NCBI GenBank assembly: GCA_965202585.1
Contig: OZ241834.1
Coordinates: forward strand, 9,982,001 to 10,046,000
Source of the DNA: Thalia democratica
Lineage: Eukaryota
Length of the DNA stretch: 64,000 bases
Reading direction: 5' to 3'
Position 1 is the stretch's first letter. Every line of letters starts with the position of its first letter. Below are positions 30,001 to 51,000 of the stretch, in pieces. A program made the position numbers.

Positions 30001-33000
30001 TACAAAAATTTTGTGTTTATTTTGCATTTTAAAACTGCTTTAAATCAAAAATATAAATCAAAAGTAAAATTTTTAGCAAACTCTTCAAAGCCACATTTCT
30101 AAAATTTTTATTTGTACTGTTCAAATTAATTAAAACATATAGTTTAAACAGAATTCATTACGTTACATCTCAAATAATTGTAATTTAAATAGTAACTCTA
30201 GTGTTTATAACTTAATATTTTAATCAATTTAAGTTTTCATTTTTTCGGTAAAAGGTTAGCTGAGTATTTTTAATTTAAATTAAAAAGTAAATACATTACA
30301 TTTTAAGTATACATATTGATACTATGTAATTCTAGAAAAAAGTTGTAGAAAGACTCACTTAAAATGAAAAGATATAAATCAATAGTGAAGAAAATCTTTT
30401 TGAAACTTAAAGTAAACATAACTTTGATGTCTAAACAATTTTTAGTTTTTAGGATTTTTAGTGTGTTTTTTTTAAGTATATTAATTTTAAACTAAAAAAA
30501 TTAATTATGCATTTAAATTGTAAAATGATCAGGTCTTGCAGCAACTAATTATTACTTATAAGTTTTAATTGCGTTTTTAACTTACTAATATAAATCATCA
30601 TATTACACAGCAAAAAAAATCAGCTTTTTAGAATTATATAAAAATAAAATACTTGATATTTAGATAAGATCAATTTTTTACTTTGTGTAACTATTCTGTT
30701 AAATTAACTTTGTTTTAAAAACTTTGTTAAATAAGTGAATATTATATACAAAGTAAAATATTAGTAGTTATCATAGTTGCCATAAATTGGATGTTTTTAA
30801 TTCCAGATCAGGGTTGCACGAGTACTATTATTGACATGCAAACTGAACACAGGACTCTATATGTTAAAAATTGTGTAGATTTTGAAACTATGAAACTAAA
30901 TGTATAAACAGGATTTTCTTACCTAAAAATCTATAAGATTATTGACTATATAAAAAGTATAGTTATCAAATCGTAGTTTCAAAATAAACTCTTTTAATTC
31001 AGCAATTTAATCATCTAAATGAATTCACCACTGATCTTACGTTTTCTACGCAATTAAAAACCATATTAGGATCATTATAAACAAAATTAATCAGTTTGTA
31101 TCCTCCGAAAGCCAACACTCCGAGTAGAACTCCTCCTAAAACCATGCCTTCGCGCTGCGCTTTCAACAAAAACTTGTCTGTTTCCATCAGTTCCTTGAGA
31201 ATTGCGCCTTTCTTGTTTTTGTGTGGAAACGGCGTGTCTGGGACTGGCACCCCTAAAAACTCGCACAGTGGCTTCCAACCTTTTTTGAAGTCCACAATGT
31301 GAAGTTTGTCTTTTGGAGCTTTCTGTGTATGATTATGTTGAGTGCTTTTTTTATAGGTTTTGGAAAAGTAAAAAGCTTTGTTTAACTTAATAATAAACAT
31401 TCCTTATTACATCATGTGTTTATTATAAGATTCTACTTTTTATAAGAAATTGAAACACAGAAAAAAAAAACTAATACATATAAGTTAAGGACGTAAAGCG
31501 GTCTACTAATTACTTAAAAAATTATTATATCTTTAATATTTAACATTTTGAAAGGTAAATTAAGGTGATTTTTTTCTAGTATTTCACTACAACCAACTAA
31601 AACAAATTAGAGCCGAATGACAGTGTAAGTTTATATTACAAAACTTCAAAAGTTCTAGGATGAGACTGAAATAAGTTTCAACTTTTATAAAAGCCTACTA
31701 ATATAATTTATTTAAAACTTTCATGTTTTTATTAAAAATATTAATAGTTAATTAAAACAACTATATAGTAAGAAACCATCCTTTTATTTTAACCTACTTT
31801 AAAGGATTCCTTTTATACGCAATAAATAAGAACAAATAACAGTATACAATGACAAACAAACCTCAAGAACATAAAATTAAAAATTGTTGCATAAAACTAC
31901 AATAAGTTATAACTTTTATAAAGCCTCTCTATTATGATTTATTTAAAATTGTTCTTTTTTTTAAACCTTAGTTTTTAATAAAACAACCATGTAATGGGAA
32001 ACAACAACTTTTAATCTACACTTTGTAAACGATGCCTTAATTATTTATAAGTAAGAACAAATAACAGTATACAATGACAAACAAACCTCAAGAACATAGG
32101 CATTGTGTTTTCTGTATGACTGTCTACATAAAAGTTCACTGTACTTACAACCACCGAACCAATGCTGTGTGAAATTTATTCCAAAACAAATCTTTCCTTA
32201 TAATATGTAAATAATAGTTTAATAAACTTAATTGAGCCTTTTAACTAAAAGAAACTATCTACAAATCACATGTCTTGTTTAAACAAAAGTATTTCGTAAA
32301 GTCAAACGATAAAAGCAGTAAAAGACAAAAATAATTTATCCTGCGCTTCTTTTTAAAAGTAGTACTAGTTTTTAAAGGTATGAAGTAAAAAAAAGATTTA
32401 TGTTAAAAAAACAGCTTATGTTCAGTTTGACATAAAAAATTTATGGAGTGTAAAACATGAATGAATAGTATTTATTAAATTTTGTACCATTTACTTACTT
32501 GCTTTATCTAAGTTAATTGCCTTAAATAAAATATTTAAAAAAAACCTATTTTAAGACCATAACGATTCATGAGCCACAGTCTTGGTGAGATCATCATTAT
32601 AAGTGTAACTAAAGGATGGGTTTGAACTTGAAGCTGTTTGTCAAAACTTTTAAACCATTCATCTTCAGTAGCACGTTGTCCAAATATTATCTAAACAGTT
32701 TTTGTACTAATTTAGAAAATCAAATTCTACATATTTTCATTGAAAAGTGTGTTTAAAAGTATATTTCAAATAACTTAAGGGTATATTTAAACTTTTTGTA
32801 AACAAAAAAATTGTGTGCGTAGTAATACATAAAAAACAAATATTTCCAGGGAGATATATCGCTTATCTGTAGAAAAAGTAATTTACGCAAAAAAATATAT
32901 ATAACTGTAACAAAATATGCATTTTGTTGTATTTTAAATGACCGCAAAGGGACGTTAGACGATTTTATATCAAATTACACAACAAAACTTTAAAAATGTT

Positions 33001-48000: not shown

Positions 48001-51000
48001 TTGGAAGCCACTGTGCGAGTTTTTAGGGGTGCCAGTCCCAGACACGCCGTTTCCACACAAAAACAAGAAAGGCGCAATTCTCAAGGAACTGATGGAAACA
48101 GACAAGTTTTTGTTGAAAGCGCAGCGCGAAGGCATGGTTTTAGGAGGAGTTCTACTCGGAGTGTTGGCTTTTGGAGGGTACAAACTGATTAATTTTGTTT
48201 ATAATGATCCTGATGTGGTTTTTAATTGCGTAGACAATGTAAAATCAGTATTGAATTCATTTAGCTAATTAAATTGCTGAATTAACATAATATTTTTTAT
48301 CTAAAATATTAATTAATAACTAAATTTTTATTATGTATTTAATGCTTTTTATATAAATAAACATTTAGTTTTAAATTATAAATAAAAAAATTATAAAACT
48401 TTTATAAATAATACTTATTTAAGTTTAAAATTGCTATTGTTTACAAAATTTACAGTATAAGTTTATTTTTTAAAACCAAATTTATCATAAAATTAAAAAA
48501 ATTAATAACAAAATTAGTCTTTCTCGTAACTACCTGTTTTCAATAGGTGCATTTTTTCAATTACACTGTATTGATAAAATATATCATTTGTTGTTAAAAA
48601 TAGTTCCTTGTTCTTATTACAAAAACTCTAAATAGGTTCAAATGTTAAATGCACAGCCTAACAAATTACATGTTTTAATATTTACCGAATGGATCAGAAA
48701 CTTTTTTTTAATTACTTATGATTTTTTTTTTAGCGCAAAAGCTACTAACTTGTAAGAATACTAATCGGTGAAAACATATTTATTTATTAAATATTTAACC
48801 GTTTTAATACAAAAAAAAAATACTAACTTATAGCATTTTAGTCGTATTATCTTCAATAACTAATGAACTACCCAACAATTTTCTCAAATCAAAAACCGGA
48901 TCAATGCATAAAAAATCGGTTACATCCGGATCCGGTAATTCATTAGTTTTTACACATAAAAGTTAATATTACATTTGATTTGAAAACTTAAAAGTACTTA
49001 TTAAGAAGCCTCATGTCCGTAATGTCATTTTTGTAACAAAAACAATTGTTTAAAATAAAACTTAGCTTATACCTATTAAAAACTTACACTTCACTTGACT
49101 TTTAGTAAATATTTGCGCTCTTTAAATGTTTTTTCATAAAAACCTTGCTTGTAAATTCTAGTATAATATTAAAAATCATATTAACGGTGACTCACGAATG
49201 ACTTTTTCCCTATAAACCTAACAAATCCAGCCACATTGTAGTGAAACCGGCCCTTTTTACATACAAAATGCTGCCAACCACTGGTTTTATGCTTAAAACA
49301 AATACTTACTGAAGTACATTTGATAAAGTTAGTTCTATATCTATAAAAATCAAATAGAATATAGAAAACAGTACACAAATAAGTAAATATATATATTTTT
49401 TTTTTCTACTAGGTTAGATTTTATATTACTTTTCAGTAAAATTCATAAAAAGTTCAACATAGTTTAAAAAAATAACTGGAGTTGTGTCTATGATTATTAG
49501 AAGCATAAGTTAAACCACCAAAGCAACTTAACTCAAAGCTTTTCAAGTTAGAATTTATCTTAATTTTAAACGGTTTTTATTAACATTTATGTATCTTAAT
49601 TTAAAAAGTAGTTGTTATTTTTCACCTGAAGCTATATTTTTCTCTTATAATTGTTAATTTGTGATTAGCTTCTGAGTTACTTTCGAATGACAGAACAGAA
49701 ATGTCAAGGTACAATGTTAGTAAGTATAGAAATTTTTAATCATAACAATAAGTCACTAATAATTGAATTAATACTGACTATTTTGATTCTGGAGAGCATT
49801 TAAAACTGTAATTTACAAAATAAAGAACGTTAGTTTTAACACAACATACCCAGTGCTAAAATTTTATAATTATTTAAAGCTTTTAAAATATTTTAAATAA
49901 TCTCTTGAAATTTTCTAAAAAATTTTTGATTAATAAAATTTTATTATTAACGGTGTTATAAAATTAGACTTAAGTAAAGAACTATATGTAAGAGAATAAA
50001 CATGGTGACCAGACATCTTATAAATTTAAAAGACTTTATAAGTAATAAAACTAACTTATTTTATATTAAACATAACGTCTTATTTTATTTTTTGTTTTAT
50101 TTATGTATTTGAGATAGAAAAAAAAGGTATTAAACGAGCTTTGTAAAAACTAGTAACTGTTTAATATTAGAAACTTAATCTATACAACTATTGATTACAT
50201 ATTACAACTTTTAAAATACTTATACTGTTGTTTTATTTCAGGTAATATTGCAAATATGTTACTTATTTTTAGCTGGTTTTACGGAGAAACATGCTTAACA
50301 ACTATTTTTAATTTATATCTATTTTTCAATATTTTTTTTAACATGTAACATTAAAATAGCTTTGTTAATACTTGCTCAAATTAAAATCACTTTACGTTTT
50401 TTTATAACTGTTCAACTTTTGCAAAGACGTACACCTTCAACTTTTCATACTTTAAAATTCTCTTATATGCTGAATTAGAATATAAACGTTTTTTTACATT
50501 AAAAGTACTTTACTTTAAATTTTTCAAAATATAAAGTCAATCGTTTGCTGAAAAAGATCCAAGCGAAACAAGTTCACTGGAATATATAATAAAAACAAAT
50601 TTAAACAGTACTCTTTCTTTGTTAAATTAACACATTTTTCTGTGTGTTTACAAGTTAACACACTTTAACGGAGCTATGAAAATTGAATAAATAATAATTC
50701 CAAACTACTATTTCTTCACATTTTATAGCTCCGTTGTAGAAAAATATTGTAGTTTAATAGAGAAAGAGTTCAGTTTGTTATTATTAAGTATTATTTATTA
50801 AAATTAGCATAGCTTTAATTGAACAAACTGTTTGTTCAATATATTAAATTAATAACTAGTCATATTTTAGATAATTTAAAGTCATACGATTATTTTTAAT
50901 GGGTGGTCGTCAGAATGGCACAGCGACACTTTAGCACGGGTCGTCAATTCAGCACGGTGGTCATTTTAGCACGGAGGGTCACTTTTGAACTGCATTACTT

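What the first reader, a model, noticed from the sequence alone, without database searches (positions are those of the whole stretch)
30995..48285. About 17-kb inverted duplication of a FABP + sulfotransferase two-gene cassette: possible lipid/sterol sulfation module
Seen: SULT-A <- FABP-A <- (about 2.7 kb between ATGs) -> FABP-B -> SULT-B. Intergenic DNA and introns are alignable across both arms and both copies of both genes are intact. Established: FABP1/6/10-type proteins carry fatty acids and bile acids, and PAPS-dependent sulfotransferases sulfate small hydrophobic acceptors. Inference: a carrier plus a membrane-anchored sulfotransferase kept together through duplication may be a small animal metabolic cluster (for example sulfation of sterols, alkanols or bile-alcohol-like compounds in gut tissue). 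Co-duplication may also just reflect adjacency.
Basis: partly seen in the sequence, partly recalled or inferred. Interest (0 to 1): 0.68.

Follow-up and report, generated by a model that had tools for sequence, protein, structure and literature searches.

The report
Inverted duplicate of FABP–sulfotransferase gene pair
An old mirror-image duplication carries two intact copies each of a lipid-carrier gene and a membrane-anchored sulfotransferase gene, kept alike by selection and copy-correction, but nothing yet shows the two genes work together.

Summary
Arm A (30950-39357, genes on -) and arm B (42080-48331, genes on +) flank a unique 2722-nt spacer.

Each arm carries two genes:
- a 3-exon, 128-aa FABP of the liver/ileal/liver-basic type (Pfam Lipocalin_7);
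- a 4-exon, 272-aa Sulfotransfer_4 enzyme with a C-terminal hydrophobic anchor.

All 14 exons are open and have canonical splice borders. The PAPS loop and the catalytic Asp are conserved (PMC7167500).

Noncoding DNA is only 78% identical between the arms and there are large arm-specific insertions, so this is an old duplication and not an assembly artefact. The FABP proteins are identical. The sulfotransferases differ at 13 of 272 residues (dN/dS 0.21).

Synonymous divergence (0.06-0.10) is well below intron divergence (0.23-0.33). A 214-nt intronic stretch is 100% identical, which 0 of 2000 shuffles reach. This indicates arm-to-arm gene conversion.

The "sulfation module" reading rests on adjacency alone, carried through one duplication event. 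No other lipid gene lies nearby and I found no paper on such linkage. It is topologically plausible but untested. Interest is modest.

The parts
30950..39357 (.). Arm A of the inverted duplication (8408 nt); genes on the - strand
39358..42079 (.). Unique central spacer (2722 nt, 23% GC). It has no internal symmetry, no Pfam hit for the one ORF tested (41242-41430), and no copy elsewhere in the window. It holds the non-homologous 5' flanks of both FABP genes.
42080..48331 (.). Arm B of the inverted duplication (6252 nt); genes on the + strand
39279..39351 (-). FABP-A exon 1 (ATG at 39351; AG directly upstream of the ATG)
38746..38918 (-). FABP-A exon 2
   Evidence: (Lipocalin_7, E 1.3e-11)
38202..38342 (-). 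FABP-A exon 3 with stop codon
42086..42158 (+). FABP-B exon 1 (ATG at 42086; AG directly upstream)
42509..42681 (+). FABP-B exon 2
   Evidence: (23 of 23 solved relatives are liver, liver-basic or ileal FABPs)
43114..43254 (+). FABP-B exon 3 with stop codon
   Evidence: (13 of 13 hits are of the same FABP types)
35683..35934 (-). SULT-A exon 1 (ATG at 35934; PAPS loop GFPKTGT; catalytic Asp66)
   Evidence: (Sulfotransfer_4, E 7.1e-23)
32546..32690 (-). SULT-A exon 2
   Evidence: (Sulfotransfer_4, E 0.04, profile positions 94-134)
32087..32196 (-). SULT-A exon 3. No Pfam hit on its own; placed by open frame, AG/GT borders, phase and 97% arm identity.
31011..31322 (-). SULT-A exon 4 with stop codon. 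Holds the end of the domain, the hydrophobic anchor and a 22-aa tail.
   Evidence: (E 1.7e-15)
45278..45529 (+). SULT-B exon 1
46590..46734 (+). SULT-B exon 2
47066..47175 (+). SULT-B exon 3
47957..48268 (+). SULT-B exon 4 with stop codon
47164..47389 (+). 226-nt block 100% identical to arm A 31873-32098. It covers the last 12 nt of SULT exon 3 plus 214 nt of intron 3. Read as a recent gene-conversion tract.
   Evidence: no RNA signal
31873..32098 (-). Arm A partner of the 226-nt identical block
31640..31878 (-). Degenerate tandem copy of that block in arm A only (about 76% identical; first 47 nt identical)
47935..48171 (+). 237-nt block 100% identical to arm A 31108-31344 (22 nt of intron 3 plus the first 215 nt of SULT exon 4)
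32810..35450 (.). Arm-A-specific DNA inside SULT-A intron 1, with 41-nt tandem arrays at 33072-33203 and 34522-34697. Likely a mobile-element insertion.
45848..46415 (.). Arm-B-specific foldback inside SULT-B intron 1 (278-nt arms, 95% complementary, 12-nt loop). MITE-like; neither of the two ORFs tested has a Pfam hit.

Best explanation
This is a genuine, old inverted segmental duplication (a small palindrome with a unique 2.7-kb spacer) of two neighbouring, unrelated genes in a very AT-rich animal-type genome. Each arm encodes a cytosolic FABP of the liver/ileal/liver-basic type and a Sulfotransfer_4 enzyme. The enzyme has an intact PAPS loop and catalytic Asp, and ends in a hydrophobic anchor followed by a 22-residue tail. 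All four genes are kept functional by purifying selection, and parts of the arms are re-homogenised by arm-to-arm gene conversion. That is why exons are 93-100% identical while the surrounding DNA is about 78% identical. The copied unit runs from 6 nt upstream of the FABP ATG to about 60 nt past the SULT stop. So the two SULT copies keep homologous upstream DNA, but the two identical FABPs sit behind unrelated 5' flanks. The likely outcome (inferred) is doubled dosage with room for different regulation. The FABP-SULT pairing was carried along by one duplication event. A carrier-to-enzyme hand-off is possible but not shown.
For: Structure. Gene models: 14 of 14 exons are open, with AG/GT at every internal border in both copies. 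Families, exon by exon: Sulfotransfer_4 scores 82 and 57.9 bits against a cut-off of 22.8; Lipocalin_7 scores 44.9 bits against 25.4. Solved relatives: 9 sulfotransferases for SULT exon 1 and 9 of 9 for exon 4; 23 of 23 and 13 of 13 liver/ileal/liver-basic FABPs for FABP exons 2 and 3. Catalytic Asp and the P[KR]TGT loop align (the residue is named in the PMC7167500 Fig. 3 legend). Anchor: KD19 is 1.86 and identical in both copies; there is no N-terminal hydrophobic stretch. Age: 3227 of 4118 aligned noncoding columns are identical (78.4%); JC distance is 0.23-0.33 per compartment; arm-specific insertions are present. Selection: FABP has 0 nonsynonymous and 5 synonymous differences (Fisher p 4.5e-4); SULT has dN 0.022, dS 0.103, ratio 0.21 (p 4.7e-5). 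Conversion: synonymous sites are less diverged than the genes' own introns (p 1.1e-4 and 1.5e-4). A 214-nt intronic identity run is reached by 0 of 2000 shuffles (largest 66). SULT exon 4 has no difference in its first 215 nt and 11 in its last 97; the probability of no synonymous change in the first part at the noncoding rate is 1e-5. Boundaries.
Against: No transcript data are available, so expression of any of the four genes is inferred. One copy of a pair could be silent and merely kept intact by conversion from the active copy. Low synonymous divergence could partly reflect codon selection in highly expressed genes rather than conversion. Intron alignment errors inflate noncoding divergence somewhat. 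SULT exon 3 has no family hit of its own, and exon 2 is below the Pfam cut-off (E 0.04) with no solved relative. The full-length proteins were never searched or folded, because the joined step was left out. The duplicated unit coincides closely with 'FABP start codon to SULT 3' end', which hints that the pair may be more than two chance neighbours.
Confidence: 0.7

Rival explanations
1. The FABP and the anchored sulfotransferase form a selected two-gene functional module. The cytosolic carrier brings a hydrophobic acceptor (sterol, alkanol, bile-alcohol-like compound or fatty derivative) to the membrane-bound, cytosol-facing enzyme, which sulfates it with PAPS. Linkage is maintained because the two are co-regulated or co-adapted.
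For: The same gene order and spacing are kept in both arms, with all four genes under purifying selection. Both proteins lack an N-terminal signal, and the SULT anchor is C-terminal, so both should meet on the cytosolic face (topology rule recalled). The FABP type is the one that binds bile acids and bulky ligands. FABP1 has been shown to hand substrate directly to membrane-bound CYP4A11 (PMC11847541, abstract). Two fungal Sulfotransfer_4 proteins were found as lipid-droplet-associated proteins (bioRxiv 10.1101/2022.11.24.517872, passages). The duplicated unit begins at the FABP ATG and ends just after the SULT stop.
Against: Co-duplication is one event and follows from adjacency. The 2.0-2.3 kb FABP-SULT intergenic DNA shows no block conserved above the neutral level. 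Among 10 neighbouring ORFs, none matches a lipid, PAPS or sulfate family. I found no report of such linkage. No synteny, expression or binding evidence could be obtained.
Confidence: 0.2
2. Assembly artefact: two haplotypes, or a fold-back chimeric read, assembled as an inverted repeat.
For: Inverted duplicates are a known artefact class (recalled). No read data were available to me.
Against: The arms are only 78.4% identical in noncoding DNA. They differ by a 2.6-kb insertion, a 568-nt foldback and a 226-nt tandem copy. They are separated by 2722 nt of unique DNA. There is no N run in the window. Exons show the synonymous-biased pattern of long independent evolution. Fold-back chimeras would be near-identical and spacerless; haplotypes would be far closer and not inverted.
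Confidence: 0.02
3. Exon similarity is due to purifying selection alone, with no gene conversion between the arms.
For: dN/dS is well below 1 in both genes. FABPs are often very highly expressed (recalled), which can constrain synonymous sites.
Against: A 214-nt intronic stretch is 100% identical. It has no RNA-family hit and no unusual folding (z -1.09). In arm A it sits next to an older copy of itself that is 76% identical. SULT exon 4 shows an abrupt switch from 0 differences in 215 nt to 11 in 97 nt.
Confidence: 0.05
4. FABP and SULT are one transcription unit: a polycistronic precursor resolved by spliced-leader trans-splicing. The unit was then copied as a whole.
For: AG lies directly before the FABP ATG in both copies, preceded in arm A by a T-run. 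Homology starts exactly there. An AG-ended site about 35 nt upstream of the SULT ATG is conserved in both arms.
Against: The intercistronic distance of 2.0-2.3 kb is long for known operons (recalled). AATAAA follows the FABP stop in both arms. The taxon is unknown, and no spliced-leader or transcript evidence exists.
Confidence: 0.05

Closest known systems
Schistosome oxamniquine-activating sulfotransferases (SmSULT 4MUA, ShSULT 5TIV, SjSULT 5TIZ) and bacterial Sulfotransfer_4 proteins (9KF1; SgdX2 8Y9P)
   Same: Same Pfam family. The P[KR]TGT PAPS loop and the catalytic Asp (SmSULT D91 / ShSULT D100) align with GFPKTGT and Asp66 here. The C-terminal motif GW.PLC.FLGV..P...FPH.N is shared.
   Different: The match is distant (E 5e-7 to 5e-4 per exon). 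The solved relatives are soluble proteins of 212-263 residues, whereas this one adds a hydrophobic anchor and a 22-residue tail. Its acceptor substrate is unknown. In none of the passages I read is a natural substrate given for the schistosome enzymes.
Vertebrate FABP1 (liver), FABP6 (ileal bile-acid-binding protein) and FABP10 (liver-basic)
   Same: Pfam Lipocalin_7. All solved relatives of exons 2 and 3 are of these types (23 of 23; 13 of 13). Length is 128 aa, with no signal peptide.
   Different: Three exons rather than the four usual in vertebrate FABP genes (recalled). It lies in a 25% GC genome unlike any vertebrate. Ligand preference is untested.
Genomic palindromes with arm-to-arm gene conversion, such as those of primate sex chromosomes (recalled, not read here)
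   Same: Inverted arms around a unique spacer. Genes in the arms are kept alike by intrachromosomal conversion.
   Different: Far smaller (6-8 kb arms) and far more diverged (78% in noncoding DNA against more than 99.9%). Conversion here is patchy and centred on exons, not arm-wide.
FABP1 direct substrate transfer to membrane-bound cytochrome P450 4A11 (PMC11847541, abstract read)
   Same: It is a working model for how a cytosolic FABP could feed a membrane-anchored, cytosol-facing enzyme.
   Different: The enzyme class and organism differ, and the genes are not linked. No interaction has been tested for the pair here.
Aspergillus oryzae LdrG/LdrH, lipid-droplet-associated proteins with a Sulfotransfer_4 domain (bioRxiv 10.1101/2022.11.24.517872, passages read)
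   Same: Same domain family, and a link to lipid-storage membranes.
   Different: They are fungal, no FABP partner is mentioned in the passages read, and no sequence comparison was made here.

Membership tests
Sulfotransfer_4 (Pfam PF17784) | Match to the family profile above the curated cut-off (22.8 bits) | tested here: met
   Exon 1 scores 82 bits (profile 1-93) and exon 4 scores 57.9 bits (profile 168-214). Exon 2 scores 14.2 bits (profile 94-134), below the cut-off. The exon 3 ORF has no hit. Exons were scanned one by one.
Sulfotransfer_4 (Pfam PF17784) | PAPS 5'-phosphosulfate-binding loop, P[KR]TGT, near the N-terminus | tested here: met
   GFPKTGT aligns with GLPRTGT (ShSULT) and GFGRTGT (9KF1). 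It is identical in both copies. The motif name is recalled.
Sulfotransfer_4 (Pfam PF17784) | Catalytic aspartate (SmSULT D91 / ShSULT D100) | tested here: met
   Asp66 (MDVPG) aligns with chain index 87 of ShSULT. The offset of 13 was fixed from the Y54F mutant chain 6B51. The residue is named in the PMC7167500 Fig. 3 legend.
Sulfotransfer_4 (Pfam PF17784) | PAPS-dependent sulfate transfer to an acceptor | not testable with these tools
   This needs a recombinant enzyme assay.
FABP1/6/10 subfamily (Pfam Lipocalin_7, PF14651) | Match to the family profile above the cut-off (25.4 bits) | tested here: met
   Exon 2 scores 44.9 bits. Exons 1 and 3 score 20.0 and 20.2 bits, each below the cut-off on its own but collinear (profile 2-24, 21-81, 86-125).
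FABP1/6/10 subfamily (Pfam Lipocalin_7, PF14651) | Nearest solved relatives are liver, liver-basic or ileal FABPs rather than heart/adipocyte types | tested here: met
   23 of 23 hits for exon 2 and 13 of 13 for exon 3.
FABP1/6/10 subfamily (Pfam Lipocalin_7, PF14651) | Ten-stranded beta-barrel with a helix-turn-helix lid that binds fatty or bile acids | not tested
   A fold needs the joined protein, and that step was left out. Binding needs an assay.
Animal metabolic gene cluster | Non-homologous linked genes acting in one pathway, co-regulated, with linkage conserved across species | tested here: inconclusive
   Only linkage in this window is shown. There is no third pathway gene among 10 neighbouring ORFs. 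Synteny and expression could not be examined.
Palindrome with arm-to-arm gene conversion | Inverted arms around a unique spacer | tested here: met
Palindrome with arm-to-arm gene conversion | Identity tracts longer than divergence allows | tested here: met
   A 214-nt intronic run is reached by 0 of 2000 shuffles, the largest being 66.
Palindrome with arm-to-arm gene conversion | Near-complete arm identity (over 99%), as in classical ampliconic palindromes | tested here: not met
   Noncoding identity is 78.4%.

The most novel reading that the evidence does not exclude
The FABP and the tail-anchored Sulfotransfer_4 enzyme are a co-adapted carrier-enzyme unit that makes sulfated lipids (sterol, alkyl or bile-alcohol-like sulfates) in an invertebrate. 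The carrier hands its ligand to the enzyme on the cytosolic face of the ER or lipid droplets. The unit is transcribed and was duplicated as one block, from the FABP start codon to the SULT 3' end. That would give a natural substrate class to an animal Sulfotransfer_4 enzyme and a rare example of a small metabolic gene cluster in animals.
Probability: 0.12. Interest if true: 0.6.

Novelty: new member of a known kind. Interest (0 to 1): 0.3.

Why it matters
As it stands, this is a clean small example of a gene-bearing palindrome whose exons are kept alike by selection plus conversion while the rest of the arms decays. That is useful for annotation: four real genes, not an artefact. It is also a possible case of regulatory divergence, since identical FABPs sit behind unrelated 5' flanks. 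It would matter more if the pairing proved functional. Animal Sulfotransfer_4 enzymes have little characterised biology in what I could search. Only 5 papers hold the family name or accession, and the three I read passages of do not name a natural acceptor. The schistosome papers I read characterise those enzymes through oxamniquine. A linked lipid carrier would point to the substrate class.

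Tried and rejected
- Rfam at gathering scores over the whole window gave 0 matches. At E up to 1 over 46900-47950 it also gave 0. The tRNA scan gave 0.
- Folding the 214-nt identical intronic block gave z -1.09, with 25 of 200 shuffles folding as well. A structured RNA is therefore not supported.
- A tblastn of the seven arm B exon pieces against the window found no third copy. In that call, 3 of my 7 pieces (FABP exon 2, SULT exons 3 and 4) were translated out of frame by a coordinate slip. 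The coordinates were corrected, but the copy search was not repeated with the corrected frames. The nucleotide self-BLAST independently shows no further copy.
- SULT exon 2 against solved structures gave only 2 chance hits (protocadherins, E above 1). The SULT exon 3 ORF had no Pfam hit.
- One ORF from the spacer, one from the arm A insert and two from the arm B foldback were scanned: 0 families.
- The genome-contig scan with SULT exon 1 gave 43 pattern matches and 0 confirmed relatives. The permitted second scan was not used, because prokaryotic neighbours bear little on the question.
- Literature: FABP/sulfotransferase/gene cluster/inverted duplication gave 31 papers, of which 15 were listed and none was on this linkage by title or abstract start. 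FABP/sulfotransferase/adjacent/invertebrate gave 6 papers, none relevant; passages of PMC9904461 were read. Two 9-residue motifs gave 0 papers.
- PMC5500785 is not held.
- Not done: any search, fold or complex prediction with a joined (spliced) protein. Exons were handled one by one and the joined step was left out. As a result structure prediction, fold search, complex prediction and the protein-atlas search were not used, since single exons would give meaningless models.
- Unchecked because closed: the search for homologous proteins, the search of protein representatives, metagenome contigs and viral contigs. No eukaryotic relatives, and hence no synteny, could be examined.
- Supplements are closed, so I could not see which rumen-fluke SULTs carry PF17784 (Table S1 of PMC11812014).
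- The taxon of the window was not determined. I do not take the contig for human: it is about 25% GC and its family content and gene structures are not vertebrate-like.

Full report
**Observation**

The window is about 25% GC over most of its length and has no N run. The repeat finder on 28000-52000 returned 17 inverted pairs that are collinear between 30981-39357 and 42080-48298. A self-BLAST of the window gave four large inverted HSPs covering 30950-39357 against 48331-42080.

The arms are 8408 nt (A) and 6252 nt (B), the spacer is 2722 nt, and the whole structure is 17382 nt.

**Gene models**

Exons were found as open frames conserved between the arms. They were checked one at a time.

| Gene | Strand | Exons |
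|---|---|---|
| FABP-B | + | 42086-42158, 42509-42681, 43114-43254 |
| FABP-A | - | 39351-39279, 38918-38746, 38342-38202 |
| SULT-B | + | 45278-45529, 46590-46734, 47066-47175, 47957-48268 |
| SULT-A | - | 35934-35683, 32690-32546, 32196-32087, 31322-31011 |

Exon lengths sum to 387 nt (128 codons) for FABP and 819 nt (272 codons) for SULT. All internal borders are AG/GT in both copies and no exon has an internal stop. AATAAA or ATTAAA follows each stop within about 45 nt (sequence shown).

**Families**

Of 10 ORFs scanned against Pfam, six matched.
- SULT exons 1, 2 and 4 matched Sulfotransfer_4 at E 7.1e-23, 0.04 and 1.7e-15. They cover profile positions 1-93, 94-134 and 168-214 of 215.
- FABP exons 1, 2 and 3 matched Lipocalin_7 at E 7e-4, 1.3e-11 and 6e-4.
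- The ORF holding SULT exon 3 had no hit. I place it by phase, splice borders, 97% arm identity and the unfilled profile gap 135-167.

Against solved structures:
- SULT exon 1 hit 9 sulfotransferases: two bacterial (9KF1, SgdX2 8Y9P) and seven schistosome chains. It also gave 6 unrelated chains at E 0.0097 or above.
- SULT exon 4 hit the same 9 and nothing else.
- SULT exon 2 gave only two chance hits.
- FABP exon 2 hit 23 chains and exon 3 hit 13. All are liver, liver-basic or ileal FABPs.

**Catalytic features and topology**

PMC7167500 (passages read; Fig. 3 legend) names D91 (SmSULT) and D100 (ShSULT) as catalytic. In one search the ShSULT chains differ at chain index 41: F in 6B51 and Y in the wild type. 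This identifies index 41 as Y54 and gives an offset of 13. Index 87 is therefore D100, and it aligns with Asp66 (MDVPG) of exon 1. The loop GFPKTGT aligns with GLPRTGT. Both features are identical in the A and B copies.

PMC4618941 (passages read) states that SmSULT uses PAPS.

A 19-residue Kyte-Doolittle scan peaks at 1.86 in exon 4 (MVLGGVLLGVLAFGGYKLI), with 22 residues after the hydrophobic segment. It is identical in both copies. SULT exon 1 peaks at 0.50 and FABP exon 1 at -0.09, so neither protein has an N-terminal signal or anchor.

By the usual rules (recalled), this predicts a C-terminally anchored enzyme with its catalytic domain in the cytosol. That is the compartment where a signal-less FABP would also sit.

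**Age, selection and conversion**

Identity by compartment:
- Exons: 93.1-100%.
- FABP introns: 79.4% and 74.9%.
- FABP-SULT intergenic DNA: 78.9% over 1984 aligned columns.
- SULT introns 2 and 3: 73.4% and 80.3%.
- SULT intron 1: mostly arm-specific DNA.

Overall, 3227 of 4118 aligned noncoding columns are identical (78.4%). This count leaves out arm B 45762-46473, which has no counterpart in arm A.

Counted exon by exon, with split codons left out:

| Gene | Nonsynonymous differences | Synonymous differences | dS | dN | dN/dS |
|---|---|---|---|---|---|
| FABP | 0 | 5 | 0.063 | 0 | 0 |
| SULT | 14 | 16 | 0.103 | 0.022 | 0.21 |

The two FABP proteins are identical. The SULT proteins differ at 13 of 272 residues: 1 in exon 1, 4 in exon 2, 1 in the exon 2/3 split codon, 1 in exon 3, and 6 in exon 4. 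All six in exon 4 lie in the tail after the anchor.

Fisher tests on rounded site counts:
- Nonsynonymous against synonymous: p 4.5e-4 (FABP) and 4.7e-5 (SULT).
- Synonymous sites against the genes' own introns: p 1.1e-4 and 1.5e-4.

Synonymous sites are thus two to four times less diverged than introns.

Identity is patchy. One run of 237 nt covers arm A 31108-31344 and arm B 47935-48171. Another of 226 nt covers arm A 31873-32098 and arm B 47164-47389. The second includes 214 nt of SULT intron 3. In 2000 shuffles of the noncoding mismatch pattern, the longest run averaged 29.9 and never exceeded 66.

SULT exon 4 has no difference in positions 1-215 and 11 in positions 216-311. With 47.3 synonymous sites in the first 71 codons, the chance of no change at the noncoding rate is about 1e-5.

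The identical intronic block has no Rfam match and folds no better than shuffles (z -1.09).

In arm A the block is followed by a second copy of itself. Its first 47 nt are identical and it is about 76% identical overall. So arm A holds both a diverged copy and a copy identical to arm B. Whatever the order of events, this requires a recent non-reciprocal exchange between the arms.

I conclude that purifying selection and arm-to-arm gene conversion together keep the exons alike.

**Artefact question**

An assembly artefact does not fit, for four reasons:
- 22% noncoding divergence between the arms;
- a 2.6-kb arm-A-only block with 41-nt tandem arrays;
- a 568-nt arm-B-only foldback;
- a unique spacer without symmetry.

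**Boundaries**

Homology starts 6 nt upstream of each FABP ATG (identity run 39268-39357 / 42169-42080). AG lies directly before the ATG in both copies. Upstream of that point the two sides align at chance level: 63.6% over 88 columns with 29 gap columns.

At the outer ends, BLAST-detectable homology stops about 60 nt past the SULT stop codons, at 30950 and 48331.

The copied unit is therefore essentially 'FABP start codon to SULT 3' end'. The two SULT genes kept their upstream DNA. The two FABP genes, which encode the same protein, have unrelated 5' flanks. Different regulation of the two FABPs is an inference. So is the alternative that the AG marks a 5'-UTR intron or a trans-splice site.

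**The functional claim**

Nothing here tests whether the FABP serves the sulfotransferase.
- Co-duplication is one event.
- The intergenic DNA shows no block conserved above the neutral level.
- Ten ORFs outside the arms gave one real family, a protein kinase at 57044-57682. One more ORF gave two sub-threshold matches, and eight gave nothing.
- 'Sulfotransfer_4' or 'PF17784' occurs in only 5 papers of the library. I read passages of three. One reports two Aspergillus oryzae lipid-droplet-associated proteins with this domain.
- Searches for FABP-sulfotransferase linkage found nothing relevant, and motif searches found nothing.
- A scan of prokaryotic genomes with SULT exon 1 confirmed no relative.

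Both proteins should face the cytosol. The FABP type binds bulky amphiphiles. FABP1 has been shown to pass substrate directly to membrane-bound CYP4A11 (PMC11847541, abstract).

I put the module reading at about 0.2, and the bolder version (co-adapted, co-transcribed unit) at about 0.12.

**What stayed unchecked**

No eukaryotic genome collection was on hand. Relatives, synteny and expression could therefore not be examined. Full-length folds and a complex prediction were not attempted, because they need the joined proteins. The taxon was not determined, and I do not take the contig for human.

**Verdict**

This is a real, old, gene-bearing palindrome with four apparently functional genes and clear conversion tracts. 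Both gene families are known. The structure is a new member of a known kind. The sulfation-module idea remains an untested hypothesis. Interest is 0.3.

Noticed in passing
58413-63545 (- strand): LTR retrotransposon. It has 112-nt terminal repeats that are 97% identical (58413-58524 / 63434-63545). ORFs match integrase (Integrase_H2C2, rve), RNase H and, weakly, RVT_1. The gag-like ORF 62305-63408 and ORF 61925-62332 have no Pfam hit. The pol region is split over several ORFs, so the copy looks degenerate.
   Followed up: partly
57044-57968 (- strand): Two adjacent ORFs match the protein kinase domain: Pkinase profile 73-132 and 132-261, at E 1.2e-15 and 1.3e-21. They are exons of a Ser/Thr kinase gene unrelated to the finding.
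   Followed up: partly
32810-35450: Arm-A-only DNA in SULT-A intron 1. It is bounded by 94%-identical direct repeats (33010-33203 / 34458-34653) made of a 41-nt tandem unit (3.2 and 4.3 copies). It is probably a non-autonomous mobile element, and it makes intron 1 2992 nt in A against 1060 nt in B.
   Followed up: partly
45848-46415: Arm-B-only foldback in SULT-B intron 1: 278-nt arms, 95% complementary, 12-nt loop. Neither of the two ORFs tested has a Pfam hit. MITE-like.
   Followed up: partly
31640-31878: A degenerate tandem copy of the end of SULT exon 3 plus the start of intron 3, present only in arm A. It carries a duplicate of the last 12 exon nucleotides and the GT donor. Whether it acts as a cryptic splice donor is unknown.
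   Followed up: yes
2-1359 and 25358-27090: A dispersed direct repeat of about 1.3 kb at 79-84% identity, with an internal tandem duplication (25595-26063 / 26084-26550, 81%). Not characterised.
   Followed up: no
3218-3382, 50523-50669, 52148-52311: A short (about 150 nt) dispersed repeat in three copies at 78-89% identity, in mixed orientation. Possibly a small mobile element.
   Followed up: no
56001-64000: GC rises to 33-41%, against about 25% elsewhere. This coincides with the kinase exons and the retrotransposon.
   Followed up: no
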